Positions 5,162 through 28,524 of a stretch of 32,153 bases of DNA are shown here, piece by piece. Source of the stretch: a virus. The notes beneath the pieces were generated by a model. The model was not told where the DNA came from and made no database searches. It saw only the letters and a program-made list of their open reading frames with translations. Every line of letters begins with the position of its first letter. Position 1 is the first letter of the stretch. The stretch lies in the UHGV virus genome UHGV-0053799; one strand, written 5' to 3'. Position numbers and translations under genes: made by a program.

Positions 5162-6352
5162 TTAATTGCTGTTAACCGAGGTGACCAGATTTGCCAGGTA
5201 TTTATCGGTAATACGCTGGCGCAGGGTCAGGTTTTCGAGAGGAGGCACCGGTGTATAGTCGTAGTCGATATACAGTTTTCCGGCCTTAAGGGTTTCCGCA
5301 TCGTTGGATTCTTCGCTGAACCAGCAGGTCGCATCCACGATATAGCCGTTTGTTTTCAGCTCACGAAATTTGGCATTGATGCCGTCAACGATGTCGCGAA
5401 TCAGCGTTGCGGTGATGGGCTTATCCACCGCCCACATGTGCGCCTCAGCCATCGTGTCGGCCAACACCTGCGCGGTGCGGGTGTAGTTTTCAAAGAGGAA
5501 CAGCGGGTCATCGGAGCAGGTACGGTTACCCCAGAATCGGAAACCGTCGCGGCGAATCAGCGTTGTGACGCCAGACTCGTTAAGCAGGTCAGCATCGGTA
5601 CCGGACTCCTGCAAATCCCAGAATACGGACGCGCTGATGCCGGTAACACCGTTTACCCCGACGTTGGACAGCGTTTTATGCCAGCCCTGCTCCTGGTCGA
5701 TTTTGGCACGCAGACCCAGCGCACGGGCGGTGGCATACGCGGTGGCGGTGGTACTGTTGACTGTATCCCATGCGAGGAAATCCGGCCAGATGACCATCAG
5801 CTCACGCTGGCTGAAATTCTGGCGGTAGGCTTTCACCTCGGAAATGGTTTTACAGCCCCATGCGCTGATATACCCGAAAGCGCGCAGCTTCTGACAGACT
5901 GATGCCAGTGCAACAGCCACCTCTTTGGTATCCAGCCCCGGCACACCAAGAATACGCGGTTTAACACCGGTTACCGACTCCGCCGCCAGCAGGGCTTTCA
6001 GTCCGGTGTACTGACCGTTTTCGTCGGTGGTGCCGATGATATTGGAAACGGTCTGCGCGAGTTTCGTTTCTTCGTCATCGCCGGTGCCGTCTTCCACGCG
6101 CACGACAACGGTGACCGGTTTTGACTGGTCGGCGATGGCCTGCAACGATGCCGCCAGCGTGCCTTTTTTACCGGCCTTTGCAATTGCGCTCTGCACATTG
6201 GTAATCAGCACAGGTTTATTGAGGGGGAAGGTTTCCGCATCCGCATCGCTGGCCGTGCAGACCATGCCGACAATGGCCGTGGATACGGTGGAAATGACGC
6301 GGGTGCCGTCGTTAATCTCCAGCACCTGCACGCCGTGATGATAGTCACTCAT
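5162..6352 (-). CDS. FI: Contractile tail sheath protein FI
   Basis: 396-aa ORF (MSDYHHGVQVLEINDGTRV...), GGAG RBS 8 nt upstream of ATG; first gene of the F operon. Confidence 0.9.
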   Translation of the reverse strand: MSDYHHGVQVLEINDGTRVISTVSTAIVGMVCTASDADAETFPLNKPVLITNVQSAIAKAGKKGTLAASLQAIADQSKPVTVVVRVEDGTGDDEETKLAQTVSNIIGTTDENGQYTGLKALLAAESVTGVKPRILGVPGLDTKEVAVALASVCQKLRAFGYISAWGCKTISEVKAYRQNFSQRELMVIWPDFLAWDTVNSTTATAYATARALGLRAKIDQEQGWHKTLSNVGVNGVTGISASVFWDLQESGTDADLLNESGVTTLIRRDGFRFWGNRTCSDDPLFLFENYTRTAQVLADTMAEAHMWAVDKPITATLIRDIVDGINAKFRELKTNGYIVDATCWFSEESNDAETLKAGKLYIDYDYTPVPPLENLTLRQRITDKYLANLVTSVNSN

Positions 6353-6475: not shown

Positions 6476-6785
6476 AGTCCTGATTTGTACTCACTCATTT
6501 TCCGACTGACAATTTACTTAGCCCAAAAGCTATCAAATCTGACAGTCTGCTTTGAGCGAGGAGCGGACATTGCTAACAGCGTTTTATGTGAATTAACAGG
6601 GAGTAGGTCAACGTAGCGCTAGTGGAGTGTATTCTGGCTTAAAGTGTGGAGCAGTTGTCAGATTCAATGCTCATTGCAAAAAATTGTGTTCTAAAGAGGG
6701 CTGTTATATGTTATAGGTTGTTAAGTACCATCGGTGTAAAATACACTTAGAAGTGTCAAACAAGATCGTTCAAAAGGAAGACAAA

Positions 6786-7043
6786 ATGAATAACCAGCAG
6801 TTTAGGGATTTTTTGCGCAAAAATGCACATATTGTGGATTCCAATTGGAATCCAACAGATGCACAGCTAGATGAAATCAGAGCAGCAATACAGAGAGAAC
6901 TAGATCTAGGTAATAAGATAAACTATAGCTGCCTTCAACATATCATTATTCGCATTACTGGCACTACTAGGGTAATGATATTTGATAGCGTTGATAATAG
7001 TGATTTAAACATGCTATTAACTGCAGCAACAAAAAAGAGTTAA
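6786..7043 (+). CDS. Hypothetical small protein (cargo, first gene of a two-gene cassette)
   Basis: ATG at 6786 preceded by AAGGAAG (6774-6780); 85 aa, no TM segment; AT-rich; the track ORF from 6753 begins with GTG and lacks an RBS. Confidence 0.55.
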   Translation: MNNQQFRDFLRKNAHIVDSNWNPTDAQLDEIRAAIQRELDLGNKINYSCLQHIIIRITGTTRVMIFDSVDNSDLNMLLTAATKKS

Positions 7044-7046
7044 TAA

Positions 7047-7748
7047 ATGGAAAATTTGGAAGAAAAGCTTTCTGCGAAGAAAGCTTTGTTTATTTCATCT
7101 GTAAGAAAATTTCTCTCGTCTAAAAACAGAGATAATTTCATAGATTGCATGATCAATGGTACCGCCTATTTCAATGAGGCAGAAAAAATGGTGGGTAATA
7201 GTAAGCTACAAGGTAAGCACAACGATGGTTTATGGGTAACTGACTTAGCCGAGTCTTGTGAGGCAATACTTGACTCTTATCTTCTGCATATTGAATTTAT
7301 CAAGTCACACCATGAAGACATGATGGGTGAAAGTTATAAGAAACCAAACCTGCATGCCCTTTCCAGTATGCAAAGAATGGTGAAGATGTATTGTCAGAAA
7401 GAATCATCCAGTCACCTGAGAGAAAGATTCTTAAAAGCTAACTTACCAACAAAGGGTTTTGACGTGGCTCACAGAGACGATATTGATACTGCAAATAAAT
7501 ATATAACATTAGGTATTGGGTCAGTATTAGTTATAATGTCATTTGCTTTTGCAATGTTCATGGATAATCCTTCGTATTTTAAAATCTTTATAATAAGATC
7601 AACTTTTGCTGTTGGCTGTGCAGCCTTGGCCTCATTTGTTCCTGGATGGATAAACGTTAACGTAAAAGGGTATGTAAAAGCAGGAGGAGCCATTGCTATT
7701 ATTTTAATATTTTATTTCTTTAACCCCCCTGCAATGCTGATTGGCTAA
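7047..7748 (+). CDS. Hypothetical membrane protein: soluble N-terminal domain (~155 aa) + C-terminal 2-3 TM helices (cargo)
   Basis: 233-aa ORF starting 3 nt after the upstream stop; hydrophobic stretches YITLGIGSVLVIMSFAFAMF, FAVGCAALASFVPGWI, AGGAIAIILIFYFF; a 60-nt sample has 28% G+C. Confidence 0.6.
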   Translation: MENLEEKLSAKKALFISSVRKFLSSKNRDNFIDCMINGTAYFNEAEKMVGNSKLQGKHNDGLWVTDLAESCEAILDSYLLHIEFIKSHHEDMMGESYKKPNLHALSSMQRMVKMYCQKESSSHLRERFLKANLPTKGFDVAHRDDIDTANKYITLGIGSVLVIMSFAFAMFMDNPSYFKIFIIRSTFAVGCAALASFVPGWINVNVKGYVKAGGAIAIILIFYFFNPPAMLIG

Positions 7749-7790
7749 ATTCCCTCCTAAATATGTTCTCCTGCTTATTCCTAATTCAAT

Positions 7791-7832
7791 CCATGGAGAA
7801 TTTAAATTCTGCCCTCCACCTCCATGGTTTTT
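7791..7832 (+). terminator. Putative intrinsic terminator of the cargo cassette
   Basis: CCATGGAG (7791-7798) / CTCCATGG (7820-7827) followed by TTTTT (7828-7832); the 21-nt loop makes it atypical. Confidence 0.35.
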
Positions 7833-8758: not shown

Positions 8759-10969
8759 TTATACCTGCGCCACGTTGTACCATGTCCCGTTAATGTATTT
8801 CTGAACCGGTCTGTAATATACGCCACCAATGTTATCGGCAGAGTTTGAGCCTGTATCCTGAACAATAATGCCGGTATATACGCACCCGGACGGTGCCTGA
8901 TGTGTCCATGTCATGCCATTGTTCGCAGGTTTGTATGTGGCCGCACCACCAAGCCGGAGATCCCTGACATAGCGGGAGTCAAAATTGCTGAAATTTGATG
9001 GTATCACCTGCCCGGTAACCCGTAGTGCATCAGACTTAAGCGTCATCAGGTCTTTTGTTGTGCTGCCAGACCTGATGCGCCATTTAAAATATTCATTGCC
9101 ATTATCACCAGTTTCAAACCACATGTATGAGTCAGAATCAGCATCTGAATCATTTTTAAATCCAATTTTCGCCCAGTCAGTGTTTCTTTCCCAAATCAGG
9201 AAGGCATCATTGATAAATTTTATGCTGCCTGACATGCTTCCGCCTGATAATGCCAGAGCAAGAATATCCGCAGGTGTTGGCTTTCGTGATGTGGTATAAA
9301 ACTCTGACCAGTCAGCCTCAAATCCATACCCATCACGTGCCGACCTGTAAAAAATCCCCCTGTTTTTATAATCCACAAGAAACTGCATTGCCGGACAACT
9401 TCCCTCACCCGTGTAAAAATGCAGCACCATTTTTGATGCTCCGCCATCCTGTGCACAATAAGCACCACTATCCCAGTTCCATCCTACCGCTTTATTATTT
9501 GCAACCGTATTTCCTGTTTTCCCTAATGCAAAAGCCGGTTGCTTATTTTTCGTATTGTAGTCGCGTCGCCAGCCCGGCGCATAATCAGCTCCGTGATTGA
9601 TATACGTGAATTGCGCACTGGTGGTACCACCACCGCTTGATGTACTCGGAGTGGTCACACGAATGGTCATTGCAGCTTTAACGCCCATAACCTCAATCAC
9701 GCAACCTGCAAGATGAATCGTCCCACAGTCAGTATCGGTAATAATTTTGTTATTACCGTATGACCAGGAACACTTGCACATCCAGTAGGGATGATTAAAG
9801 GCTCCCTGAGACTCCAGCCAGTCAATAAACTGCGCGGTTGTCCAGTTTCCGGCTTCAGTGCTCAAAGCACCGCTATAAGCACGACAGGCACCGATATTTT
9901 TCGTGAAGGTATCCTTTCCCGGAATATCCGCACCGTTCTGATCTTTCTGAAGACGTTTTTCAGCATTGTCATAGGCAGACTTCACCGCTTTTGGTGTTGC
10001 AGCCAGCGTTTCAGAATCGCTGTTGATGGCACTATTGAGCTGAACAAGACCTTTCCGCGCCGTGGTGGCGTCCTGTGCAGTGTATTTCCCGTTAGCAAGG
10101 TCATACGCTGTCTTAACCGCCTTTGGCGTTGCCGCAAGCGTTTCAGAATCGCTGTTGGTGGCGCTACTGAGCTGGACAAGACCTTTTCGCGCGGTGGTGG
10201 CGTCCTGTGCAGTGTATTTCCCGTTAGCAAGGTCATATGCTGCCTTTACCGCTTTTGGTGTTGCGGCGAGCGTTTCAGACGTGCTGTTGGTGGCACTACT
10301 GAGCTGGACAAGCCCTTTTCGCGCTGTGGTGGCATCCTGCGCAGTATATTTCCCGTTAGCAAGGTCATACGCGGCCTTTACCGCTTTCGGCGTTGCGGCC
10401 AGTGTTTCAGACGTGCTGTTGGTCGCACTGCTTAACTGAGTAAAACCTTTGGCGGTCAGCGAGGCGTCCGGGTGACGTCGTGACTGTTCATGTTCTGCAA
10501 TTTTGTCATCAACGTAATCCTGCGTTGCCATCACCGTTGTGGTGTCAATGGTCAGCTCCACTGAGGCTACACTGCTGACTATGATGACCATGCGGCAGGT
10601 CTGCGAACGCCCTGAGCCTTCGGCAAGGGCTGGCTTATAACTTTCGGCCATGTTCGCCACGGCAATTAGCGTTCCCGCATCATCGTACAGGCCAAGTTCA
10701 CGCATCCAGAAACCGCCCACCTCCGGCGGAATAACCAGCTCTGCGATAATATAATTACTGTTTCGTTTGTCCTGGCTGATTTTGTTCAGCGTATGTCGCC
10801 AGACTTCGTGGATAAGCCCGGTCTGTCCGGCATCCGGGACAGGCAATTTACCACCGCCATCCCCGACGGCCATCGTGGTAATGTTGACCTTCCGCCCTCC
10901 CGGTGCGGTTGCCGCTGCCAGCTTTGCTGCACCGGCAGTGGTGATAACGGTTTTGAATTTTGTGCTCAT
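8759..10969 (-). CDS. H: Tail fiber protein H
   Basis: 736-aa ORF; N-terminus as in P2 gpH; internal 44-aa repeats (SETLAATPKAVK...YDLANGKYTAQDATTARKG), the common phage tail-fibre repeat; distinct C-terminal domain. Confidence 0.9.
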   Translation of the reverse strand: MSTKFKTVITTAGAAKLAAATAPGGRKVNITTMAVGDGGGKLPVPDAGQTGLIHEVWRHTLNKISQDKRNSNYIIAELVIPPEVGGFWMRELGLYDDAGTLIAVANMAESYKPALAEGSGRSQTCRMVIIVSSVASVELTIDTTTVMATQDYVDDKIAEHEQSRRHPDASLTAKGFTQLSSATNSTSETLAATPKAVKAAYDLANGKYTAQDATTARKGLVQLSSATNSTSETLAATPKAVKAAYDLANGKYTAQDATTARKGLVQLSSATNSDSETLAATPKAVKTAYDLANGKYTAQDATTARKGLVQLNSAINSDSETLAATPKAVKSAYDNAEKRLQKDQNGADIPGKDTFTKNIGACRAYSGALSTEAGNWTTAQFIDWLESQGAFNHPYWMCKCSWSYGNNKIITDTDCGTIHLAGCVIEVMGVKAAMTIRVTTPSTSSGGGTTSAQFTYINHGADYAPGWRRDYNTKNKQPAFALGKTGNTVANNKAVGWNWDSGAYCAQDGGASKMVLHFYTGEGSCPAMQFLVDYKNRGIFYRSARDGYGFEADWSEFYTTSRKPTPADILALALSGGSMSGSIKFINDAFLIWERNTDWAKIGFKNDSDADSDSYMWFETGDNGNEYFKWRIRSGSTTKDLMTLKSDALRVTGQVIPSNFSNFDSRYVRDLRLGGAATYKPANNGMTWTHQAPSGCVYTGIIVQDTGSNSADNIGGVYYRPVQKYINGTWYNVAQV
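9955..10450 (-). repeat. 132-bp tandem direct repeats (about 3.7 copies) inside H
   Basis: cgtttcag(a/ac)... recurs at 10007, 10139, 10271 and 10403 (period 132 nt); in-frame, encoding the 44-aa fibre repeat. Confidence 0.85.
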
Positions 10970-12415: not shown

Positions 12416-12763
12416 TCAACTCACAGGGATGGTTAACGAAAGTGGCTGGCCGGTGTCGTTGTGCTGACCGGTTAACGTGACCGTCATTCGCCCGTCAAAA
12501 CTGCGCGCCGTGGTGACGGATGACAGGGTGACGCGGGGTTCCCATTTCAGCACTGCCATGTAACAGGCGACCTTAATCTGCAACTCAAGCGCCGGGGTCT
12601 GCGGCTGGTCAATCATTGACGCCAGCAACGAGCCGTAATCACGACGCATCACCCGTGAGCCGACGGGGGTACGCAGGATATCGCCGATACTCTGGCTGAT
12701 ATGCTCAAGGTCAGTGACAGTCAGGCCATCACTGCGATTCATTCCGAGATAACGCGCAGTCAT
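12416..12763 (-). CDS. W: Baseplate protein W
   Basis: 115-aa ORF, same length and position as P2 gpW. Confidence 0.9.
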   Translation of the reverse strand: MTARYLGMNRSDGLTVTDLEHISQSIGDILRTPVGSRVMRRDYGSLLASMIDQPQTPALELQIKVACYMAVLKWEPRVTLSSVTTARSFDGRMTVTLTGQHNDTGQPLSLTIPVS

Positions 12764-13395
12764 AGAGGTCCCCCGGTTGTGCCGCCGCTGTCGCCGGGGG
12801 GTTTATGGGTAGGCAGTACCTTACCGTTTGATGAGAGCTCACCGCCGGTGTGTTCAATGTTGCCGCGCATCGTCCCGCCCTTCTGCACTTCCAGCGTGCC
12901 GGTAATCAGCCTGTTGGTGCAGACCACCTCCGGTGTGTCCAGGGTGATGCGGGTTGATGCTTTCACCATGACCACCGGCACCGTGGCAGTAACAGAATCA
13001 GAAGCCGTCACGCTGGCCGTTTTAACTCCGCTTACCGTGAGCGCGCTGGTTTCAGGTTCATACTCAATCACCGCCCCGTCAGGGAAACGGATATGCAGGG
13101 CATCCGCCGACGCAGACGGCGCGGGGTTATCGCCGGAATAAATCCCTGGCAGAACGAACGCCGTGTCGAGTTCACCACCCACGGCCAGAATCAGCACCTG
13201 TTCCCCCACGGAAGGTGCCCACCATGTGCGCGAACGCCCGGCGCGATGGGTCAGCCACTGAAGCCAGTCGGTGCACATGCCGCCGGTCTGCACACGGCAG
13301 CGACCGGCATTAAGGTCGGTTTCGACGATAATGCCGGTGCGGATCATGTTGCGCAGTGCGCGCGCGAGTTCCTGAATATTTGCGAGAGTGTTCAT
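12760..13395 (-). CDS. V: Baseplate spike protein V
   Basis: Track ORF extends to 13413; start placed at the in-frame ATG 13395 (MNTLANIQELARAL...), as I recall P2 gpV; 211 aa. Confidence 0.85.
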   Translation of the reverse strand: MNTLANIQELARALRNMIRTGIIVETDLNAGRCRVQTGGMCTDWLQWLTHRAGRSRTWWAPSVGEQVLILAVGGELDTAFVLPGIYSGDNPAPSASADALHIRFPDGAVIEYEPETSALTVSGVKTASVTASDSVTATVPVVMVKASTRITLDTPEVVCTNRLITGTLEVQKGGTMRGNIEHTGGELSSNGKVLPTHKPPGDSGGTTGGPL

Positions 13396-13478
13396 GCGTG
13401 TGAGATTGCACAATATATAAAAGTTATGCTATCTGGATTCATTTGTAGAACGACCATACAACATTCGAGGAGAGCGTA

Positions 13479-14264
13479 ATGTTCAGTGATAATGTGACTA
13501 ATGCGTGGTGGTTTATCTCTTTGTATCTATTTTTATTAATAGCATTAACATTTGTTACCTTTGGTAAAAGTAATCTTATGAGGTTTATTGCACATCATTT
13601 CAATCTTGAGTATTCAGACAGAAAGTTAAAAATGCTCGACAAAAAATGGCGCGACATTCAACTATTTAAAATAATTAACGGAATCAATGTATCAAGCATC
13701 GAAGATGTGAGAATGATACAGCAGGGGCTGATTGATGGAAAACTAAAAACATCGTATTTTTTCCTTACTCGCTTCTGGGGTGACATAACAAAACCACCAC
13801 ACATAATTAAAACAACAATTGTAATTCTGGCCAGTATTATTTATATTCTCTTCGCATGTTATATACACAATGAACAATCCGCTATAGTAAGGGATGCCAT
13901 AGGTATACCATATAAAAATATGATGTACTATGTTTATAGTGACAAAGTTCTTTTATCCTTCAAAAATAAAACGGTTGAATTTAATAAAACTTATAGCCTT
14001 GCCGATTGCAAGAGTCTGCAAAACGTATTTATAAAAGACACACTTCCCGAGATCGCCTGCAATAAGCTCTTACAGCTAAACAAGGAGGACTCCGAATGGT
14101 TAAGTCAGGAGATTAAAGATAATAACAGCCACAGAAAAACATTATTAATAATATCCCTAACCTATTTCATTTCAGGTCTGCTTATATTCCTGTCATATAC
14201 AAAATTCCTTTACACCAATAAGAAGGTTTTAGAATACAAAGCATCAAATAAAAACCACTCATAA
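13479..14264 (+). CDS. Hypothetical membrane protein, 3 predicted TM helices (cargo at the orf30 position)
   Basis: 261-aa opposite-strand ORF with GAGGAG RBS (13466-13471); hydrophobic segments WWFISLYLFLLIALTFVTF, IIKTTIVILASIIYILFACYI, TLLIISLTYFISGLLIFLSY; a 60-nt sample has 28% G+C. Confidence 0.6.
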   Translation: MFSDNVTNAWWFISLYLFLLIALTFVTFGKSNLMRFIAHHFNLEYSDRKLKMLDKKWRDIQLFKIINGINVSSIEDVRMIQQGLIDGKLKTSYFFLTRFWGDITKPPHIIKTTIVILASIIYILFACYIHNEQSAIVRDAIGIPYKNMMYYVYSDKVLLSFKNKTVEFNKTYSLADCKSLQNVFIKDTLPEIACNKLLQLNKEDSEWLSQEIKDNNSHRKTLLIISLTYFISGLLIFLSYTKFLYTNKKVLEYKASNKNHS

Positions 14265-14274
14265 ACCTCTAAAT

Positions 14275-14301
14275 ATTGAGCGACCAGCACGGCCGCTCAA
14301 T
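14275..14301. terminator. Hairpin between convergent genes (possible bidirectional terminator)
   Basis: ATTGAGCG (14275-14282) / CGCTCAAT (14294-14301), 11-nt loop, between the cargo stop (14264) and the S stop (14336); flanks only moderately T-rich. Confidence 0.4.
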
Positions 14302-14335
14302 GCTTAATTGCGCATCAGCCTCTGCCTGGATAAAA

Positions 14336-14788
14336 CTAACGCTCAAGGTGAGCCAGGATAATCTCTTCAATCATCTGCACATCCTCACCGGTAAAGCCGA
14401 GCAGAGGACGCGCCGGATAATCAATTTTCTTACCGTCTTTCCGGTTTTCTTCCGACAGACCGAACTGATGCACACTGGCGATTTTCGGTGACTTCCCGCC
14501 GTAAAACTCCATTGATGCCTGTTCCGGGCTGGCGCGGATATGCAAAAAACGACTGGTGATAAGTTTCGTAAACATTTTTCGCTTAACACGACCGGTCTTT
14601 TTTCTGGCGCTCTGCTGCTGGCGTGGCGCGTAGGGTGTGCCGTCCGGAGCTTTCTGTGCCATCACCCGACGCTGCTGACTCTGCCGCAGGCGTTTCGCCA
14701 GTTCGGCACTCAGTCGCCGACGCCCTGACGGTGACAGCGATTCAATCAGTCCGGTCAGCCGGTCTTCAAAACGCTTAAACTCATTCAT
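14336..14788 (-). CDS. S: Tail completion protein S
   Basis: 150-aa ORF, same length and position as P2 gpS. Confidence 0.9.
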   Translation of the reverse strand: MNEFKRFEDRLTGLIESLSPSGRRRLSAELAKRLRQSQQRRVMAQKAPDGTPYAPRQQQSARKKTGRVKRKMFTKLITSRFLHIRASPEQASMEFYGGKSPKIASVHQFGLSEENRKDGKKIDYPARPLLGFTGEDVQMIEEIILAHLER

Positions 14789-20708: not shown

Positions 20709-22481
20709 ATGACCATCACCACAGACACCACTCTTTTACACGACCCGCGTCGTCAGGCGGCGCTGCTGTACTGGCAGGGGTTTTCCGTGCCGCAGATTGC
20801 CGCCATGTTGCAGATGAAACGCCCGACGGTGCAGAGCTGGAAACAGCGCGACGGCTGGGACAGCGTTGCCCCCATCAGCCGTGTCGAAATGAGTCTGGAA
20901 GCGCGGCTGACCCAGCTCATCATCAAACCGCAGAAAACCGGCGGGGACTTCAAGGAAATTGACCTGCTGGGACGCCAGATTGAACGACTGGCACGGGTCA
21001 ACCGTTACAGCCAGACCGGCAACGAGGCAGACCTTAATCCGAACATCGCTAACCGCAACAAAGGCGGGCGTCGCAAACCGAAAAAGAATTTTTTCAGTGA
21101 CGAGGCCATCGAAAAGCTGGAGCAGATTTTCTTTGAGCAGTCTTTCGAATATCAGTTGCACTGGTATCGCGCCGGGCTTGAGCACCGCATCCGCGATATC
21201 CTGAAATCCCGCCAGATTGGCGCGACGTTTTATTTTTCCCGCGAGGCGCTGCTGCGCGCCCTGAAAACCGGTCATAACCAGATTTTTCTGTCGGCCAGTA
21301 AAACGCAGGCGTATGTGTTCCGCGAATACATCATCGCCTTTGCCCGGCTGGTTGACGTTGACCTGACCGGTGACCCGATTGTCCTTGGCAATAACGGCGC
21401 AAAACTGATTTTTCTCGGCACCAACTCCAACACCGCACAGAGCCATAACGGCGACCTGTACGTCGACGAGATTTTCTGGATCCCGAATTTTCAGGTACTG
21501 CGTAAGGTGGCATCAGGTATGGCCTCACAGAGTCACCTGCGCTCGACCTATTTCTCCACCCCGTCCACGCTGGCGCACGACGCCTACCCGTTCTGGTCGG
21601 GTGAACTGTTCAACCGGGGACGCGCCAGCGCCGCCGAACGTGTGGAAATCGACGTCAGTCATAACGCCCTTGCCGGTGGTCTTCTCTGTGCGGACGGCCA
21701 GTGGCGGCAGATTGTCACCATTGAGGACGCCCTGAAAGGCGGCTGCACATTGTTCGACATTGAGCAGCTCAAACGCGAAAACAGCGCCGACGATTTTAAA
21801 AACCTGTTCATGTGTGAATTTGTTGACGACAAGGCATCGGTGTTCCCGTTTGAGGAGCTGCAACGCTGCATGGTCGACACGCTGGAAGAATGGGAAGACT
21901 ATGCGCCGTTTGCCGCCAATCCGTTCGGCTCACGTCCGGTATGGATTGGTTACGACCCGTCACACCGTGGCGACAGCGCCGGATGCGTGGTGCTGGCACC
22001 GCCGGTGGTGGCCGGTGGCAAATTCAGAATACTTGAGCGTCACCAGTGGAAAGGCATGGACTTTGCCACTCAGGCGGAATCCATCCGCAAACTCACCGAA
22101 AAATACAACGTCGAATACATCGGAATTGATGCCACCGGCCTCGGTGTCGGCGTGTTCCAGCTCGTGCGCTCGTTCTATCCCGCCGCGCGTGATATCCGCT
22201 ACACGCCGGAAATGAAAACCGCAATGGTGCTCAAGGCAAAAGACGTTATCCGCCGTGGCTGTCTGGAATACGACGTCAGCGCCACCGACATCACCAGCTC
22301 GTTTATGGCTATCCGCAAGACCATGACCAGCAGCGGACGCAGCGCCACCTATGAGGCCAGCCGCAGCGAGGAAGCCAGCCACGCCGACCTCGCCTGGGCG
22401 ACCATGCACGCCCTGTTAAATGAGCCACTCACCGCCGGTATCAGCACCCCGCTGACATCCACCATTCTGGAGTTTTACTGA
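20709..22481 (+). CDS. P: Terminase ATPase (large) subunit P
   Basis: Start placed at MTITTDTTLLHD (20709), 590 aa; transcribed divergently from O. Confidence 0.9.
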   Translation: MTITTDTTLLHDPRRQAALLYWQGFSVPQIAAMLQMKRPTVQSWKQRDGWDSVAPISRVEMSLEARLTQLIIKPQKTGGDFKEIDLLGRQIERLARVNRYSQTGNEADLNPNIANRNKGGRRKPKKNFFSDEAIEKLEQIFFEQSFEYQLHWYRAGLEHRIRDILKSRQIGATFYFSREALLRALKTGHNQIFLSASKTQAYVFREYIIAFARLVDVDLTGDPIVLGNNGAKLIFLGTNSNTAQSHNGDLYVDEIFWIPNFQVLRKVASGMASQSHLRSTYFSTPSTLAHDAYPFWSGELFNRGRASAAERVEIDVSHNALAGGLLCADGQWRQIVTIEDALKGGCTLFDIEQLKRENSADDFKNLFMCEFVDDKASVFPFEELQRCMVDTLEEWEDYAPFAANPFGSRPVWIGYDPSHRGDSAGCVVLAPPVVAGGKFRILERHQWKGMDFATQAESIRKLTEKYNVEYIGIDATGLGVGVFQLVRSFYPAARDIRYTPEMKTAMVLKAKDVIRRGCLEYDVSATDITSSFMAIRKTMTSSGRSATYEASRSEEASHADLAWATMHALLNEPLTAGISTPLTSTILEFY

Positions 22482-23515
22482 TGAGCAAGAAAAAAGGGAA
22501 AACACCGCGACCAGCGGCAAAAACAATGACCGCCAGCGCCCCGAAAATGGAGGCATTCACCTTTGGTGAGCCGGTGCCGGTACTCGATCGCCGTGACATT
22601 CTGGATTACGTCGAGTGCATCAGTAACGGCAGATGGTATGAGCCACCGGTCAGCTTTACCGGTCTGGCAAAAAGCCTGCGTGCTGCCGTGCATCACAGCT
22701 CCCCGATTTACGTCAAACGTAATATTCTGGCCTCGACATTTATCCCGCATCCGTGGCTTTCCCAGCAGGATTTCAGCCGCTTTGTGCTGGATTTTCTGGT
22801 GTTCGGTAATGCGTTTCTGGAAAAGCGTTACAGCACCACCGGTAAGGTCATCAGACTGGAAACCTCACCGGCAAAATATACCCGCCGTGGCGTGGAAGAA
22901 GATATTTACTGGTGGGTGCCGTCCTTCAACGAGCCAACACCTTTCGCGCCCGGCTCCGTGTTTCACCTGCTGGAGCCGGATATCAATCAGGAGCTGTACG
23001 GCCTGCCGGAATATCTCAGCGCCCTTAACTCTGCCTGGCTGAATGAATCAGCCACGCTGTTCCGCCGCAAGTATTACGAAAACGGCGCACATGCCGGATA
23101 CATCATGTACGTCACCGATGCCGTGCAGGATCGCAACGATATCGAAATGCTCCGCGAAAACATGGTGAAGTCGAAAGGCCGCAACAACTTTAAAAACCTG
23201 TTTCTCTATGCCCCACAGGGGAAAGCCGACGGCATTAAAATTATCCCGCTCAGTGAAGTGGCAACGAAGGACGATTTTTTTAATATCAAAAAAGCCAGCG
23301 CCGCTGACCTGCTGGACGCGCACCGCATCCCCTTTCAGTTGATGGGCGGCAAGCCGGAGAACGTCGGGTCGCTGGGTGATATTGAGAAAGTGGCAAAGGT
23401 CTTTGTCCGCAATGAGCTTATCCCGCTACAGGACAGGATCCGCGAGATAAACGGCTGGCTCGGTCAGGAGGTCATCCGCTTTAAAAACTACTCACTGGAC
23501 ACTGACAACGGCTGA
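22481..23515 (+). CDS. Q: Portal (capsid vertex) protein Q
   Basis: 344-aa ORF; TGATG stop/start overlap with P; last gene before cos. Confidence 0.9.
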   Translation: MSKKKGKTPRPAAKTMTASAPKMEAFTFGEPVPVLDRRDILDYVECISNGRWYEPPVSFTGLAKSLRAAVHHSSPIYVKRNILASTFIPHPWLSQQDFSRFVLDFLVFGNAFLEKRYSTTGKVIRLETSPAKYTRRGVEEDIYWWVPSFNEPTPFAPGSVFHLLEPDINQELYGLPEYLSALNSAWLNESATLFRRKYYENGAHAGYIMYVTDAVQDRNDIEMLRENMVKSKGRNNFKNLFLYAPQGKADGIKIIPLSEVATKDDFFNIKKASAADLLDAHRIPFQLMGGKPENVGSLGDIEKVAKVFVRNELIPLQDRIREINGWLGQEVIRFKNYSLDTDNG

Positions 23516-23828: not shown

Positions 23829-24527
23829 TTACAACTTCGTCATTGCTGACTCAAATTCATCATTAAATGGCTTAATTTGAGATGATGTTAGTTTTTTTAC
23901 GAACTTTTTTGTTGTTGTTTGAACTACGATTCTACCTTCACCAAGAGCATTCCCCTGGCATTCTTTTACGAACCATTCTTGAGTTACTGATGTGGTAATA
24001 CTCATTGGGATCACAAGCGTTAATATATCTCCGTAGTCTTCTAAAACATGCGGTAACTTGCCAGAGATAAGCGTCCTGGGGTTTACCAATATATTCATTG
24101 CTTTATTATTAGAAAATTGCAACACAACTGATTGAATATTACTCCTTACTTTTCTTTTGTTTGTTATGGTTATTGATATTGCTGTATCTGTAGTGCTAGG
24201 TAAGTACATTGATGGCATTAACACCATGCTATATCGAATAGCAATTTCTTCTGAATTTTCCTTTAGCGAACGGTGTGCTAACAACAATGATGTCGCAACA
24301 GCAGAAAATGCCCCCACCCCAGAAACCCAAGTACCCAACATGGTCAAAAAAGGTATTGTAATTAATTGGTATTTAGTGTCACCATTCAAACCAACACCAC
24401 TATAACCCACGTAACACCCTATAAAAAAGAATAGACAAGCCGTTATTAAAAAAAATAATAAATGCATAGAACTTATATTTTTAAATTTCAGCAACAAACC
24501 TCTTAAAATATATTTGCATCTCTTCAT
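23829..24527 (-). CDS. Hypothetical membrane protein, 2 N-terminal TM helices + ~130-aa soluble C-terminal domain (cargo)
   Basis: 232-aa ORF; hydrophobic LLFFLITACLFFFIGCYVGY and ITIPFLTMLGTWVSGVGAFSAVATSLLLA; a 60-nt sample has 18% G+C. Confidence 0.55.
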   Translation of the reverse strand: MKRCKYILRGLLLKFKNISSMHLLFFLITACLFFFIGCYVGYSGVGLNGDTKYQLITIPFLTMLGTWVSGVGAFSAVATSLLLAHRSLKENSEEIAIRYSMVLMPSMYLPSTTDTAISITITNKRKVRSNIQSVVLQFSNNKAMNILVNPRTLISGKLPHVLEDYGDILTLVIPMSITTSVTQEWFVKECQGNALGEGRIVVQTTTKKFVKKLTSSQIKPFNDEFESAMTKL

Positions 24528-24625
24528 TTTCTAATCTCACATTAAAATCAGACACCAATTTTTGCTAGTCACTATTTTTATGATTGCCAGCATAAATGCT
24601 GGCATCTTTATCATTCTGGCACAGT

Positions 24626-25357
24626 TCACTCACTTATAATTGATACAACCTCACCTGTTTCTACATTGACACGCGCAGCAATCGTCTGTTTCACCACTCC
24701 GCCATAAGCATTAGTTCCGCGAAACGTGGTTTTCACAATGGCATGCGGGTCTTTATTCAAAATCAGATGATATACCGTTGACACATGTTTATAAGATGAA
24801 TCATCGTTCATATTATCTTTAATTAGTTTTTCCAATGGACGATAAGAACCATCCCAACCACTAAAATTACTCTGAAATGTATCAAGATTGATTTTATTGT
24901 TTAGTGACTTCGGGTCATTTTCATAATCATTAAAGCACCACCCAAGAACATCACCGAGTTTCAACTCATCATCTTTGGTAAATGTATACTCACTCATGCA
25001 GGCATAAAACGCATCTGACGCGGCGGCTGGAACTTCCTTAAAATCAATGTAACTATTCACAATATCGTGTCGTGTTTTCTTTGACTCGTTCCGATATTCC
25101 TTGAGTGTTTTTTCACCATATTCGAATGTTTTTTGGACTTTGTGTTCTGCAACGGTTGATGTTTCAGTTTTAGCAACTGGCTGGCTTTTTTCTGTTGGAT
25201 AGAGTATTGAACCAATTATGCTCAATACAAAACCACCTCCGAGATAAACCGCACTTGCACGTTTGCGGTTTGGCATTCGCACCAGTGATGGCCTGATTAA
25301 CCCGATGAAGAAAGCAACGAAAAAAGCGAGTGATAGAAAAGCGATTATAGTATCCAT
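24626..25357 (-). CDS. Hypothetical membrane-anchored protein, 2 N-terminal TM helices + ~180-aa soluble domain (cargo)
   Basis: Start placed at the in-frame ATG 25357 (MDTIIAFLSLAFF...) because AAGGA lies 6 nt upstream; the track ORF extends to 25399 without an RBS; 243 aa. Confidence 0.55.
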   Translation of the reverse strand: MDTIIAFLSLAFFVAFFIGLIRPSLVRMPNRKRASAVYLGGGFVLSIIGSILYPTEKSQPVAKTETSTVAEHKVQKTFEYGEKTLKEYRNESKKTRHDIVNSYIDFKEVPAAASDAFYACMSEYTFTKDDELKLGDVLGWCFNDYENDPKSLNNKINLDTFQSNFSGWDGSYRPLEKLIKDNMNDDSSYKHVSTVYHLILNKDPHAIVKTTFRGTNAYGGVVKQTIAARVNVETGEVVSIISE

Positions 25358-25580
25358 AGCTATCCTTTTTGCATCATCCACATAAAAAATCGACCTCATG
25401 TTAGCAACAGGATGCTTACTTTTGAATATTTGTAAGTTGTTAGCTCTCCAACCTAACTCTTTTCAACCGTCAAAAACCAGCACCAACGCAGTAAAAATAT
25501 GTCTGTCAACTAACGCCTCGCTTCGCTCGTTGTTCAACCCCGCCAGCCCTGAAAACAAGTTTCACGACTGGCGGCGTTCT

Positions 25581-25787
25581 CTATCGTCTGCGTGGTGGTG
25601 GCGCAACTCTGGACTGACCGATATCGTTAAACCGTCTGTAATTATCCCGGACTATTTCGGCACACCCGACCAACTCGTCAGGCGTCAGATTTTCGTTGAG
25701 CATAATCTGCTGTAGACGGTGAACAATGGCCATCAGTTTGATATTTTTAGTTTTATGGTGCGGTATCTCGCCTGGTATTCTGTGCAT
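25581..25787 (-). CDS. Small hypothetical protein (68 aa)
   Basis: ATG at 25787 overlaps the TAA stop of the upstream ORF (TAATG), suggesting translational coupling; no recognisable motif. Confidence 0.3.
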   Translation of the reverse strand: MHRIPGEIPHHKTKNIKLMAIVHRLQQIMLNENLTPDELVGCAEIVRDNYRRFNDIGQSRVAPPPRRR

Positions 25788-26242
25788 TATCCAAGCCACC
25801 CATTTTGCTTTGCACGCTCCACCTGTTCATCTGAATAGTTCCATATCCCATCCGTAGCAACCACTGCCCCGCCAGACATCCCCGTCTCTGGTTCATACAT
25901 AACAGCAAGGCCGAGCTGATGCATAATCTCATGATTAATTCTGAATACCAGACCACGTTCACTAAGTTCTTTCCAGTTCACAATCTTATATGCGCCCGTA
26001 TTAAGCAGCTCAATACTTAGCAAGACATAATCTTCCAGCCAGTCTGACAGGTCAGTAACATCTGTTATCCGGGCTTCAACCTTTCGCCCCGTAAACACAC
26101 CCTGCACCCATTCATGCAAAATCAGCGTGTCCCCGCGCTCATAATTACGGTCATTTTTCCGAAACTCTGCGCGTTTCTTTCCTTCCAGCACAAGGTCAAA
26201 ATATTTGGCGTGCAGCTTTACCTCGTGAATTTTTGCCATCAT
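25787..26242 (-). CDS. ASCH/DUF3850-like (PUA-fold) protein with a C-terminal extension
   Basis: GKKRAEFR fits the ASCH motif GxKxxExR; GGAG RBS; start ATG overlaps the A stop codon (ATGA); C-terminal extension contains HEIMH. Confidence 0.65.
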   Translation of the reverse strand: MMAKIHEVKLHAKYFDLVLEGKKRAEFRKNDRNYERGDTLILHEWVQGVFTGRKVEARITDVTDLSDWLEDYVLLSIELLNTGAYKIVNWKELSERGLVFRINHEIMHQLGLAVMYEPETGMSGGAVVATDGIWNYSDEQVERAKQNGWLG

Positions 26243-28524
26243 TTCCACTCCATTACTATTGAGAATCCCGGCCACTCATCAGCGACCGGATACGTGAATT
26301 TTTTCCCGTCGTAATTTACGGTCGCGCCACGCGCCAGCGCCTCAAGCTCCCATCGCTGCGGCCTGATACCGTTCTGAGCGAGATCAACGCGGATACGGGT
26401 GATTTGCAATCGTTCAGACCGGGTCAGTCTGGCCGATGGTGCAATTTCATGTGGTTTTAACGGGCTTCCGTTTCTTTGCTGACGATTTGGTGTTCTCAGG
26501 TCGTGTTTTAATGCCCCCCTGAGCGCCCTCACGACCTCCGTGTCGTTCCATTCGATAACACCGTCATCAACCAGATTAAGCACTGCTGCGGCGTGTTCAG
26601 AAGGTGTGGGAGCCGGTAACGAAGTATCACCACCGGTGAGCTTTCCACAGTTATTGACAGGACTCCGAGGCGCGGCGATGCCGCTTTTTAAAGTCAAAGG
26701 CTCAACGACCGGAACTTTCGGCACAATGCGCCAGTCCGTCGTTCTGGTGATATGAATATGACGCGCGCCGAGATGCGGCGCGTAAATGCCGACCACTCTC
26801 TCGACTTCTTCCTCGTACTCGTTAACTTCATCCGACGGACTACGGGCAACCCTGACAGTCTGACAATCGCGCGGGACATTTGCCCCACCCTGCGCGCTGA
26901 TATACAACGCAAAATCACCACTGTCTGCGGCGGCGCGTGCAGCCTCGACGCGCTCGTCAAACTCATCAGCAATGCTGACGCCGCGAGGCAATTTGCGTAG
27001 TTCACGGTAAGCCCCCATTGTCGGCAGACCAACCGTTTTAAATTGTGGGATGCGCCACGTTGACGCCCATGCGGTAACAGCCGCAGCAGTATCTTTAAGC
27101 GGTCTGCCGGTATCGTTATCGAGCTGACCATCCAGTGCATAGCCATCGATGTTTTTTGAGATGTATTTCGCGATATACCCCGCAGCACCGCCCTGGTTAA
27201 GGTGTTTTGCCTGAAAACGGTTTCGCGCGGCTCCTCTTTCGTCGCCATCCTCTTTGAGCGCATAGCGACGCATGATTTCGATAATCTGGTTACGCTGGCG
27301 TGGATTACAAAAAAGCATCATATGCCAGTGCGGCGTTCCGTCGTGGTGTGGCTCGACGACACGCAAACCGTAGACCTGTAAATCATTATCCTTGAATGCC
27401 GTGCGCATCAGGCTCCAGATGCGGCAGAGATAACGCTGCGCATCCTTTGGATTAAATGCCTCATCGTTCCAGCCGTGATTAAGCTGAACGGTTTTACTTT
27501 CGCCTTTTCTGACCTGACGAGTCGGGTGATACTTTGACGGCGCGGTCAGCGTGATAAACATCCCCACATCACCCTCTGCGGCGGCGTAACGCTCAATACC
27601 GGCAATGGTGTTCATCAGCTCCATCCGGCGAATTTCAGGATTAGAAATACTGCCCATCACCTTACTGATAAGGTCGATGCGCTCGCCGGTTTCCCTGTTT
27701 TCAAGGTCACACGATTTAAGAAATTCCAGATTTGCCTGGCGGCGTGCACGCACATCACGAATGGCATGTTTACTGGCATAAGGAGAACGGTCTTTATTCA
27801 CCTCCCCGACAGCAATCAGTAACGCCTCATGCCAGCGCATACGCTGGCCTTTGAGCTGATGAGTCCACCACTCATCGTTAAACAGACGGGCAATGGCAGA
27901 ATATGCCTGCCTCGTGGTCATCTGTCCTTTACGGTATTTTTTCCAGTAAAGCGGGGAAATATTGAAAGCACGTGCAGCGCCAGCAACATGACCATAGAGG
28001 TGAGCCTGCGCCTCATCCGTAAACAGCGATTCTTTTTCGCCATGTGCATCCACCCAGGCATCGCTGAGTTCCTCATACATCATGAAAAGCTGCGATGAGA
28101 TACGGGCAGCAAACTTTTTCAGCTCCTTGTCATTCATTCCCGGCAGGCGCGCATAGTGGTCACGCTCTGCCAGAAACAGTAACGACGCGTCGGTGTTCAT
28201 TTCATGGCGCTGATTCACACGCTCAATGCGCGGCCATAAACGACGCTGAAAAGTGGATGTGAGGAAATAAAACCCGTGCACCGGGCTTTTATTGCGCCGG
28301 ATGTAGTCATAGCGTGAAGTAAACAGCGAGCGCAAAAAGTAAGGCAGGCGGTTAATCGTGGATAAAACACCTTGCACCTGACGCATCTCGTCACGTGTAA
28401 GGGGTCTTTCGCGCCCGACGGCCTCGCGTGGCGCGTTCCATGCATAAGCACCGGTAAACGCCTTACCGGTGCCTGCAGCAAATGCTGACGGAGGGACAAA
28501 ACGCCCGGAGGCTTTAACGGCCAT
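26239..28524 (-). CDS. A: Rolling-circle replication initiator A
   Basis: Start placed at MAVKASGRF (28524), 761 aa; HUH-type motif TPHWHMMLF (about 27311-27334) and paired tyrosines YIAKY (about 27163-27177). Confidence 0.9.
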   Translation of the reverse strand: MAVKASGRFVPPSAFAAGTGKAFTGAYAWNAPREAVGRERPLTRDEMRQVQGVLSTINRLPYFLRSLFTSRYDYIRRNKSPVHGFYFLTSTFQRRLWPRIERVNQRHEMNTDASLLFLAERDHYARLPGMNDKELKKFAARISSQLFMMYEELSDAWVDAHGEKESLFTDEAQAHLYGHVAGAARAFNISPLYWKKYRKGQMTTRQAYSAIARLFNDEWWTHQLKGQRMRWHEALLIAVGEVNKDRSPYASKHAIRDVRARRQANLEFLKSCDLENRETGERIDLISKVMGSISNPEIRRMELMNTIAGIERYAAAEGDVGMFITLTAPSKYHPTRQVRKGESKTVQLNHGWNDEAFNPKDAQRYLCRIWSLMRTAFKDNDLQVYGLRVVEPHHDGTPHWHMMLFCNPRQRNQIIEIMRRYALKEDGDERGAARNRFQAKHLNQGGAAGYIAKYISKNIDGYALDGQLDNDTGRPLKDTAAAVTAWASTWRIPQFKTVGLPTMGAYRELRKLPRGVSIADEFDERVEAARAAADSGDFALYISAQGGANVPRDCQTVRVARSPSDEVNEYEEEVERVVGIYAPHLGARHIHITRTTDWRIVPKVPVVEPLTLKSGIAAPRSPVNNCGKLTGGDTSLPAPTPSEHAAAVLNLVDDGVIEWNDTEVVRALRGALKHDLRTPNRQQRNGSPLKPHEIAPSARLTRSERLQITRIRVDLAQNGIRPQRWELEALARGATVNYDGKKFTYPVADEWPGFSIVMEWK

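What the first reader, a model, noticed from the sequence alone, without database searches (positions are those of the whole stretch)
13396..14335. Opposite-strand AT-rich membrane protein at the orf30 moron position between V and S
P2 has the non-essential orf30 between S and V. Here a 261-aa plus-strand ORF (GAGGAG RBS) sits divergent from V in minus-strand late operons. It has three well-separated hydrophobic helices with soluble, Lys/Asn-rich segments between them; a 60-nt sample has 28% G+C. The start is only 83 bp from the V start codon, so its promoter must overlap the V late-promoter region, giving scope for expression in the lysogen that is shut off or interfered with during late transcription.
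Basis: partly seen in the sequence, partly recalled or inferred. Interest (0 to 1): 0.6.

Follow-up and report, generated by a model that had tools for sequence, protein, structure and literature searches.

The report
Phage P2 orf30 membrane-protein gene
The AT-rich opposite-strand gene between the tail genes V and S is an allele of the long-known but still uncharacterised, non-essential orf30 of phage P2: a three-helix inner-membrane protein sitting in a slot that in sister phages holds anti-phage defence systems, which makes a defence role the best, still untested, guess.

Summary

New here:
- Orf30 belongs to a very divergent family (18-40% identity, one member passing Pfam DUF6216). Members lie in the same S-V slot, on the opposite strand, in most located P2-like prophages of Escherichia, Enterobacter and Sodalis.
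- In 75 close relatives the slot is empty in 48, holds orf30 in 16, and holds other AT-rich cargo in 11. That cargo includes Pycsar, a RelA/SpoT enzyme and AAA(+TIR) ATPases.
- The predicted topology is N-out, with a conserved basic cytoplasmic helical domain and a more variable periplasmic domain carrying a conserved Cys pair. The loops are under purifying selection and the TM helices evolve almost neutrally.

Best guess (about 0.4): a lysogen-expressed envelope-level anti-phage protein. Interest is modest.

The parts
12760..13395 (-). gpV (baseplate spike), first gene of the V late operon; left anchor of the slot
   Evidence: ORF list. 211-aa product, 93-99% identical to gpV on 80 IMG/VR contigs. 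Annotated V in P2.
13396..13478 (.). 83-bp divergent control region between the V and orf30 start codons (38.6% G+C); holds the pV late promoter and presumably the orf30 promoter
   Evidence: Sequence. Only 3 sequence variants among 25 orf30-bearing loci. The P2 record places the pV transcription start at the V ATG. No sigma-70 match of 9/12 or better.
13437..13464 (-). Ogr/delta activator binding site of pV, mapped by homology; ends 2 nt before the orf30 Shine-Dalgarno
   Evidence: P2 record AF063097 feature 10239-10266 transferred by the gap-free alignment of the spacer. A conserved ACACAAC half-site lies at the same distance from V in most cassette types, including the more distant Orf30-family loci.
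13467..13472 (+). Shine-Dalgarno GAGGAG of orf30, 6 nt from the ATG
   Evidence: Sequence.
13479..14264 (+). orf30 coding sequence: 261 aa, 32.4% G+C, orthologue of P2 Orf30
13503..13565 (+). TM1 (residues 9-29); the N-terminus is predicted periplasmic
   Evidence: Hydropathy. AF2 helix 4-28. No Lys/Arg before TM1 in 25 of 26 family members. dN/dS 1.11.
13566..13802 (+). Loop 1 (residues 30-108): basic helical domain, predicted cytoplasmic; the best conserved part of the family (D-x-Q-L-F-K/R-x-x-N-G-I-N-V ... D-A ... G-x-L motif)
   Evidence: Alignment A1. Mean 32% identity to the window protein, against 17% for loop 2. K+R 14 against D+E 8. dN/dS 0.36. Helices 30-40, 48-67, 74-86 and 91-94.
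13803..13871 (+). TM2 (residues 109-131)
   Evidence: No column at 70% identity or more across the family.
13872..14138 (+). Loop 2 (residues 132-220): predicted periplasmic domain, a four-strand beta-meander plus helices, with a conserved Cys pair (C177, C194)
14139..14207 (+). TM3 (residues 221-243), continuous with a long helix starting at residue 202
   Evidence: dN/dS 1.07.
14208..14261 (+). Lys-rich C-terminal tail (residues 244-261), predicted cytoplasmic
   Evidence: 4 Lys/Arg in the first 15 residues after TM3 (family mean 3.4).
14270..14306 (.). Hairpin (ATTGAGCG-N11-CGCTCAAT, 14275-14301) between the convergent orf30 and S genes. In P2 it is annotated as the rho-independent terminator of the O operon and could also end the orf30 transcript
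   Evidence: P2 annotation transferred. Sequence conserved in 25 loci. Not picked up by the simple terminator scan, because the T-run is weak.
14336..14788 (-). gpS (tail completion), last gene of the O late operon; right anchor of the slot

Best explanation
SHOWN:
- The gene is the orthologue of phage P2 orf30, a non-essential, horizontally acquired 'moron' in the S-V slot of a P2-type phage or prophage.
- It encodes a three-pass membrane protein. The predicted order is: N-terminus out, an ~80-aa basic helical cytoplasmic domain, an ~90-aa periplasmic alpha/beta domain with a conserved Cys pair, C-terminus in.
- It belongs to a highly divergent family that mostly occupies this same slot in P2-like prophages.

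INFERRED (mechanism):
- Orf30 is made in the lysogen, independently of the late operons, and acts at the inner membrane as an anti-phage protein for the lysogen.
- The most likely mode is superinfection exclusion. The more variable periplasmic domain would recognise something an incoming phage exposes in the periplasm, or a host inner-membrane entry factor. The conserved cytoplasmic domain would engage a conserved host or membrane partner, and genome entry would be blocked.
- Because the Ogr site and the pV promoter lie over the only place a spacer promoter could be, late activation of pV would shut orf30 off when the resident phage itself goes lytic.
For: Identity:
-.

Autonomy and foreign origin:
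- 32% G+C, opposite strand, its own Shine-Dalgarno, and a hairpin between orf30 and S.
- The slot is empty (66 bp) in 48 of 75 close relatives, so the gene is dispensable for the phage.

Selection:
- The frame is kept in about 27% of P2-clade prophages of complete E. coli genomes (482 of 1795 places).
- The loops are under purifying selection (dN/dS 0.30-0.36) while TM1 and TM3 drift (about 1.1). The helices therefore look like anchors, and the soluble domains look like the functional parts. This argues against a pore-forming role.

Guilt by location:
- In sister phages the same slot carries Pycsar (PycC E 1e-128, PycTM E 8e-29), a RelA/SpoT synthetase-like protein (PDC-S33), and AAA and AAA+TIR proteins (PDC-S59). 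All are 34-38% G+C.

Family behaviour, as expected for conflict genes:
- 18-40% identity between members whose flanking gpV proteins are 64-86% identical, still in the same slot.
- The periplasmic loop is more variable than the cytoplasmic one.
- Occasional moves to other prophage hotspots and lone chromosomal copies in Enterobacter show that the gene works without the phage late genes.

Topology:
- Positive-inside counts are 8.35 against 4.42, and there are exactly two Cys in loop 2 in 26 of 26 members.
Against: - There is no experimental phenotype. The P2 record says only 'nonessential', and the papers found give the function as unknown (PMC3091744, PMC6823313).
- From my own knowledge, the classical exclusion phenotypes of P2 lysogens are attributed to old, tin and fun(Z), not to orf30.
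- No PADLOC, Pfam, NCBIfam, PDB or fold match to any known exclusion or defence protein.
- No convincing sigma-70 promoter upstream, so expression in the lysogen is unproven. AT-rich DNA may also be silenced.
- A selection on fosmid libraries from 71 E. coli strains with T4, lambda-vir and T7 reported P2 systems only from the other two hotspots (PMC9519451). This is weak negative evidence, because it is not known whether orf30 clones were present.
- Not every P2 moron is a defence gene. neaT, in the Z/fun slot, is a virulence and fitness factor (PMC3573123).
- The chromosomal Enterobacter copies are not in recognisable defence islands.
Confidence: 0.4

Rival explanations
1. Abortive-infection sensor and effector. 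Orf30 senses infection at the membrane and then kills or arrests the cell, for example by depolarisation through oligomerised TM helices, rather than blocking entry.
For: - Same location and selection arguments as the best explanation.
- The neighbouring cargo types in the slot (Pycsar with a TM effector, RelA/SpoT, TIR) belong, from my own knowledge, to families described as abortive-infection systems.
Against: - TM1 and TM3 evolve at dN/dS of about 1, and no TM2 or TM3 column reaches 70% conservation in the family. That is not expected for pore-lining helices.
- The TM helices contain no charged or polar ladder.
- There is no partner gene in the cassette.
Confidence: 0.15
2. Lysogenic-conversion factor unrelated to phages. 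An envelope protein that changes host physiology, surface properties or fitness in a niche, as neaT does in the Z/fun slot of a P2-like prophage, or bor and lom do in lambda.
For: - AT-rich, opposite-strand, single-gene moron, exactly like neaT (PMC3573123).
- Lone chromosomal copies in Enterobacter lie next to chemotaxis, sigma-factor and sugar-utilisation genes, not defence genes.
- Common in clinical, avian and animal E. coli isolates.
Against: - No enzymatic or transporter domain.
- The other identifiable cargos of this slot are defence-type.
- The extreme divergence of the family inside one conserved phage backbone fits conflict better than housekeeping.
Confidence: 0.2
3. Accessory function in the phage's own lytic cycle or establishment, for example modulation of lysis timing, of DNA injection or exit, or protection of the infected cell from secondary adsorption by progeny.
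For: - It is embedded between late operons, close to the lysis genes (lysA, lysB and lysC are 0.5-1.5 kb away).
- The membrane location is shared with holin and antiholin proteins.
- It is retained in plaque-forming isolates such as P2, the vB_EcoM-12474 phages and the Yersinia vB_YpM phages.
Against: - It is on the strand opposite to all late transcription and convergent with the O operon, so late transcription should oppose its expression.
- 64% of close relatives lack any gene there, with no compensating change visible.
- Lone chromosomal copies exist without any phage genes.
- P2 annotates it as nonessential.
Confidence: 0.08
4. Non-functional passenger: a decaying remnant of foreign DNA that happens to keep an open frame.
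For: - No known function, no domain match and no clear promoter.
- One frameshifted copy (L067).
Against: - The 786-nt frame is intact across alleles that differ by up to 15% in nucleotides.
- dN/dS is 0.30-0.36 in the loops.
- Family-wide conserved motifs and Cys pair at 18-30% identity.
- A confident AlphaFold model (pLDDT 83).
Confidence: 0.02

Closest known systems
Bacteriophage P2 Orf30 (AAD03281.1; PHROG 2407)
   Same: Orthologue: 83.5% aa and 92.5% nt identity, 261 aa, between S and V on the opposite strand, with identical 83-bp and 71-bp spacers carrying the pV activator site and the O-operon terminator.
   Different: Only allelic differences. The window allele belongs to the class of OU784549 (98.5% aa). 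The alleles fall into discrete identity bands in E. coli genomes.
Other accessory cargos of the P2 hotspots: old, tin and Z/fun in P2; the defence systems of the old/tin and Z/fun hotspots (Rousset 2022 PMC9122126; Vassallo 2022 PMC9519451)
   Same: AT-rich, variable, dispensable cargo between conserved P2 genes. In this study the S-V slot is seen to carry Pycsar, RelA/SpoT and AAA(+TIR) cargos in sister phages.
   Different: No sequence or fold relationship. orf30 has no demonstrated defence activity. The S-V slot is listed as a moron region (PMC6823313, PMC3091744), but the three hotspot papers read do not describe it as a defence hotspot.
Prophage inner-membrane superinfection-exclusion proteins (P22 SieA, T4 Imm, HK97 gp15); comparison from my own knowledge
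   Same: Small, phage-encoded, non-enzymatic inner-membrane proteins made from single-gene morons. This is the functional analogy proposed.
   Different: No detectable homology. Orf30 is larger, with two folded soluble domains on opposite sides of the membrane. Its activity is untested.
Pfam DUF6216 (PF19723)
   Same: Same size (270-position model) and full-length alignment for the distant family member P0031 from a Sodalis prophage (28.9 bits against the gathering score of 27.3). 10 of 26 family members give weak hits.
   Different: The window protein itself does not hit the model. DUF6216 has no known function, so membership adds no mechanism.
neaT, an acyltransferase moron in the Z/fun slot of the CFT073 P2-like prophage (PMC3573123)
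   Same: AT-rich, single gene, opposite orientation to the flanking tail genes, membrane protein, phyletically patchy.
   Different: Different slot. neaT has an acyltransferase domain and a virulence phenotype. Orf30 has no enzymatic domain.

Membership tests
P2 Orf30 / PHROG 2407 | Full-length sequence homology to P2 Orf30 | tested here: met
   phrog_2407 at E 2.3e-141 over residues 1-261 of 261. tblastn to AF063097 orf30: 83.5% identity over 100% of the query.
P2 Orf30 / PHROG 2407 | Synteny: between gpS and gpV, transcribed against the late operons | tested here: met
   The same arrangement is seen in 9 fetched loci and 15 IMG/VR loci.
P2 Orf30 / PHROG 2407 | Non-essential for plaque formation | not testable with these tools
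   Indirect support only: the slot is empty in 48 of 75 close relatives, and the P2 record note says 'nonessential'.
Moron (extra transcription unit in a phage genome) | Present in some and absent from other closely related genomes, between conserved genes | tested here: met
   Empty 66-bp slot against the 940-bp cassette, with gpV 93-99% identical.
Moron (extra transcription unit in a phage genome) | Deviant nucleotide composition | tested here: met
   32.4% against 51.9% G+C.
Moron (extra transcription unit in a phage genome) | Own promoter and terminator, expressed from the prophage | tested here: inconclusive
   A hairpin lies downstream. No sigma-70 match of 9/12 or better upstream; the best is 8/12. 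No expression data found.
Known anti-phage defence systems (PADLOC-DB v2) | Match to a model of a known or candidate defence protein | tested here: not met
   0 families at E <= 1.
Known anti-phage defence systems (PADLOC-DB v2) | Location in a hotspot shared with defence systems | tested here: met
   Pycsar, PDC-S33 and PDC-S59 cargos in the same slot of sister phages.
Known anti-phage defence systems (PADLOC-DB v2) | Protects cells from phage infection | not testable with these tools
   Needs plaque, adsorption and DNA-entry assays.
Superinfection-exclusion inner-membrane proteins (SieA, Imm, HK97 gp15 type) | Inner-membrane localisation | tested here: inconclusive
   Prediction only: three hydrophobic helices and the positive-inside rule.
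Superinfection-exclusion inner-membrane proteins (SieA, Imm, HK97 gp15 type) | Homology to a characterised exclusion protein | tested here: not met
   No Pfam, PHROG-annotated, PDB or BFVD match.
Superinfection-exclusion inner-membrane proteins (SieA, Imm, HK97 gp15 type) | Blocks genome entry after normal adsorption | not testable with these tools
   Experiment required.
Pfam DUF6216 | Score at or above the gathering threshold (27.3 bits) | tested here: not met
   The window protein has no hit. Only the distant relative P0031 passes, at 28.9 bits; 9 others are below threshold.

The most novel reading that the evidence does not exclude
The Orf30 family is a previously unrecognised class of single-gene, membrane-spanning anti-phage immunity proteins, with a variable periplasmic sensor and a conserved cytoplasmic domain. 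The S-V gap is a further defence hotspot of P2-like phages, alongside old/tin and Z/fun. Its commonest cargo in the P2 clade, present in about 9% of complete E. coli genomes, has been overlooked because it matches no defence model.
Probability: 0.3. Interest if true: 0.6.

Novelty: already known. Interest (0 to 1): 0.35.

Why it matters
P2 is the reference member of a very common prophage family. Its V-type baseplate gene occurs in 1574 of 5426 complete E. coli genomes, and orf30 in 464 of them. orf30 has been annotated as non-essential since the P2 genome record AF063097, and no function was found for it in the literature searched.

Two results turn it into a concrete, cheap-to-test candidate for a new envelope-level phage-resistance protein. 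First, its slot alternates with Pycsar and other defence-type cargo. Second, it belongs to a hyper-divergent family that mostly keeps to that slot. The same results suggest that surveys of P2 defence hotspots should add the S-V gap.

If the defence idea fails, the finding is simply a correctly described allele of a known orphan gene.

Tried and rejected
- Domain and defence libraries on the window protein: Pfam gave only a sub-threshold DUF6535 hit on TM1; NCBIfam and PADLOC gave nothing.
- PDB sequence profile search with the family alignment: nothing below E 0.07.
- Sigma-70 promoter in the spacer: none at 9/12 or better. A relaxed scan gave only 8/12 with 19-nt spacers, so I do not name a promoter.
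- Pervasive positive selection: rejected. dN/dS is 0.45 overall and 0.3 in the loops. The raised average comes from the TM helices.
- 'The slot holds only Orf30-family genes': rejected. 11 of 75 loci carry unrelated cargo.
- 'The family is confined to the S-V slot': rejected. L181 and L182 (beyond R), L183 (between int and D) and the Enterobacter chromosomal copies are exceptions.
- The RelA/SpoT cargo as CapRel: not demonstrable. Its nearest solved sequences are small alarmone synthetases.
- Searches that found nothing or failed. The search for related loci with the whole family alignment failed because the alignment was too divergent. P0031 and P0021 singly found nothing in viral contigs. 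Alignment A5 found nothing in genome contigs. P0046 found nothing in phage records.
- Literature searches found no functional study of orf30 and none of DUF6216.

Full report
WHAT IS THERE

The interval 13396-14335 is exactly the gap between the start codon of a minus-strand gpV gene (12760-13395) and the stop codon of a minus-strand gpS gene (14336-14788). It contains one plus-strand ORF, 13479-14264. The ORF starts with ATG, encodes 261 aa, and has GAGGAG 6 nt upstream. The opposite strand has nothing longer than 48 codons. The ORF is 32.4% G+C, against 51.9% for the rest of the window (profile). Three hydrophobic stretches, at about residues 9-29, 109-131 and 221-243, separate Lys/Asn-rich segments.

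IDENTITY

The window is a P2-type phage genome.
- The 1.1-kb region is 99.5% identical to 'Peduovirus P2' OU784549 and 92.5% identical to the reference P2 genome AF063097.
- In AF063097 the homologous ORF is annotated 'orf30, Orf30, nonessential'. It is 261 codons long, lies on the strand opposite to V and S, and is 83 bp from V.
- Protein identity to P2 Orf30 is 83.5% over the full length. The protein matches PHROG 2407 (unknown function) end to end at E 2e-141.
- The literature I could search lists the S-V position as one of three moron-bearing regions of P2-like phages and gives the Orf30 function as unknown (PMC6823313, PMC3091744). I found no functional study.

THE PROTEIN

An exhaustive HMMER scan found about 25 full-length relatives of 250-270 aa at 22-34% identity. 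Aligned with the close alleles (A1, 26 sequences), they show:
- an invariant G68, G87, C194 and I212;
- a conserved motif D-x-Q-L-F/Y-K/R-x-x-N-G-I/V-N-V ... D-A ... G-x-L in the first loop;
- a Cys pair in the second loop.

With this alignment AlphaFold gives a confident model (pLDDT 83.4, pTM 0.72). It consists of TM1, a four-helix domain, TM2, a four-strand beta-meander with short helices, and then one long helix (202-260) that runs into TM3.

Topology follows from the positive-inside rule across the family:
- Lys+Arg in the TM flanks averages 8.35 on the loop-1/C-tail side and 4.42 on the N-terminus/loop-2 side.
- 25 of 26 members have no Lys or Arg before TM1.
- All 26 have exactly two Cys in loop 2.

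I therefore place loop 1 and the C-tail in the cytoplasm, and loop 2, with a probable disulfide, in the periplasm. This is a prediction, not a demonstration.

Loop 1 is the best conserved part of the family, at a mean 32% identity to the window protein. Loop 2 is at 17% and the TM helices at 12-21%.

One distant member, P0031, passes the Pfam gathering score for DUF6216 over its full length, and nine others give weak hits. The window protein itself does not hit the model. DUF6216 has no known function.

WHERE THE FAMILY LIVES

Most members with a readable context sit in the same slot, between gpV and gpS on the opposite strand:
- P0046, only about 18% identical to the window protein, in another E. 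coli P2-like prophage.
- Sixteen of the seventeen IMG/VR loci found with sub-alignments A2 and A4 (L092-L108). L097 ends before gpS. In L102 a further 1.2 kb lies between gpV and the gene, and in L106 and L107 about 1 kb lies between the gene and gpS.
- Two of the five loci found with sub-alignment A5.
- One Enterobacter metagenome-assembled genome.
- P0031, in a Sodalis prophage.

In these phages gpV is 64-86% identical to the window's gpV, while the slot protein is 18-40% identical.

The exceptions show that the gene is a mobile, self-sufficient unit:
- two contigs where it lies beyond gpR (L181, L182);
- one where it lies between the integrase and gpD (L183);
- lone chromosomal copies in Enterobacter with no P2 genes within 4 kb (L011, L184, L185).

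Among 50,697 sequenced phage records, only the 21 carrying the P2-type allele contain a family member.

THE SLOT

I fetched 80 viral contigs whose gpV is 93-99% identical to the window's and measured the S-V gap. Of the 75 contigs with both anchors:
- 48 have an empty 66-bp gap whose sequence is unrelated to the orf30 flanks;
- 15 have the 940-bp orf30 cassette, and one more has a frameshifted copy;
- 11 have other cargo of seven kinds, all 34-38% G+C.

The other cargo includes:
- a complete Pycsar system (PycC E 1e-128, PycTM E 8e-29);
- a RelA/SpoT-domain protein (PADLOC candidate PDC-S33), whose nearest solved relatives are small alarmone synthetases;
- an AAA+TIR protein and an AAA_22 protein (PDC-S59);
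- three proteins without any match.

In complete E. coli genomes the V-type gene occurs at 1795 places and orf30 at 482, about 27% of P2-clade prophages and 464 of 5426 genomes.

The S-V gap therefore behaves like the old/tin and Z/fun hotspots. The three hotspot papers I read describe those two, plus one next to the repressor, but not this one.

SELECTION

Among 22 distinct orf30 alleles, pairwise Nei-Gojobori dN/dS has a median of 0.45. The flanking genes in the same genomes give 0.15 (V) and 0.08 (S). Split by region:
- the soluble parts are constrained: loop 1 0.36, loop 2 0.30, C-tail 0.29;
- TM1 (1.11) and TM3 (1.07) drift, and TM2 is intermediate at 0.48.

The gene is thus functional. 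Its soluble domains carry the function and the helices mainly anchor them. This argues against a pore or holin-like mechanism. It does not indicate pervasive positive selection at this depth.

REGULATORY GEOMETRY

The P2 record places the Ogr/delta activator site of pV 42-69 nt upstream of V, and the pV start at the V ATG. Transferred to the window, the site is 13437-13464, ending 2 nt before the orf30 Shine-Dalgarno.

The 83-bp spacer has only three variants in 25 loci. The ACACAAC half-site is kept at the same distance from V in most cassette types.

Any orf30 promoter inside the spacer must overlap the pV core promoter and the activator site. However, no sigma-70 match of 9/12 or better exists there; the best are 8/12 with 19-nt spacers. 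I found no transcript data, so expression in the lysogen remains an assumption.

The hairpin at 14275-14301, between the convergent orf30 and S genes, is the annotated O-operon terminator of P2.

MECHANISM AND RIVALS

I commit to a lysogen-expressed inner-membrane anti-phage protein, most likely a superinfection-exclusion factor whose periplasmic domain meets the invader and whose conserved cytoplasmic domain meets a conserved partner (confidence 0.4).

What is shown: identity, dispensability, foreign origin, purifying selection on the loops, slot-sharing with defence systems, the divergent slot-resident family, and independence from phage late genes.

What is inferred: expression in the lysogen, topology, any interaction, and the phenotype.

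Rivals:
- an abortive-infection sensor and effector (0.15), disfavoured by the drifting TM helices;
- a phage-unrelated lysogenic-conversion factor (0.2), for which neaT in the Z/fun slot is a precedent (PMC3573123);
- an accessory role in the phage's own cycle (0.08);
- junk (0.02).

The main evidence against the defence reading is the absence of any match to known defence or exclusion proteins, the lack of a recognisable promoter, and the lack of a reported phenotype for P2 orf30.

VERDICT

The feature is real and accurately described, but it is an allele of an already catalogued gene, so its novelty class is 'already known'. The added value is contextual: a family definition, a topology and structure model, and evidence that the S-V gap is a defence-type hotspot. 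Together these make the unknown function of P2 orf30 directly testable. Interest 0.35.

Noticed in passing
window 6601-7800: A second AT-rich island (35-37% G+C) in the Z/fun slot next to the sheath gene FI (5162-6352, - strand). It has two plus-strand ORFs opposite to the late genes: 6753-7043 (96 aa) and 7047-7748 (233 aa, hydrophobic C-terminal third). Neither hits PADLOC.
   Followed up: partly
window 23829-26275: A third AT-rich island (34-38% G+C) in the old/tin (TO) slot, between the portal gene (22481-23515) and the replication gene A (26239-28566). It has two membrane-protein ORFs (232 aa at 23829-24527 and 257 aa at 24626-25399, both on the - strand) and a 162-aa ORF at 25787-26275. 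None hits PADLOC. All three moron slots of this phage therefore carry uncharacterised membrane proteins.
   Followed up: partly
window 13380-13410; L001 1596: The P2 record places the pV transcription start on the A of the V start codon, and there is no Shine-Dalgarno upstream of V in the window. This suggests a leaderless V mRNA.
   Followed up: no
L012-L091 (48 loci with an empty slot): The empty S-V gap is a conserved 66-bp sequence with a G+C-rich hairpin (GCCGCCGG-N6-CCGGCGGC) that ends 13 nt from the V start codon. It shares no sequence with the flanks of the orf30 cassette. The whole stop-to-start interval, pV promoter included, is exchanged as a unit.
   Followed up: partly
L092-L108, L179-L180: In the more distant P2-like phages gpS is only 42-55% identical to the window's gpS, while the adjacent gpR (58-81%) and gpV (64-86%) are much closer. 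gpS seems to exist as a strongly divergent allele next to the variable slot.
   Followed up: no
L181 388-2169: In L181 the V-S gap holds a 593-aa protein with an R-x4-H (RTRNIIVH) motif reminiscent of HEPN nucleases, while the Orf30-family gene lies beyond gpR. L182 has the same arrangement by tblastn. This is another probable defence cargo of the slot.
   Followed up: no
L085, L087 (intact); L088, L089 (split): A 389-aa cargo protein with C-terminal hydrophobic helices and no Pfam or PADLOC match occupies the slot in four contigs. It is broken into two ORFs in two of them, so some slot cargos are decaying.
   Followed up: no
L052 (slot ORF of 247 aa): An unassigned 247-aa plus-strand cargo, similar in size and position to the 741-bp ORF16 reported in the S-V slot of phage R18C. 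That paper also calls P2 ORF30 '261-bp-long', whereas it is 261 codons (786 bp).
   Followed up: no
L185 3977-4768; L184; L011: Lone chromosomal copies of an Orf30-family gene in Enterobacter. In L185 it lies between an ECF sigma-factor gene cluster and a methyl-accepting chemotaxis protein gene, with no phage genes within 4 kb.
   Followed up: partly
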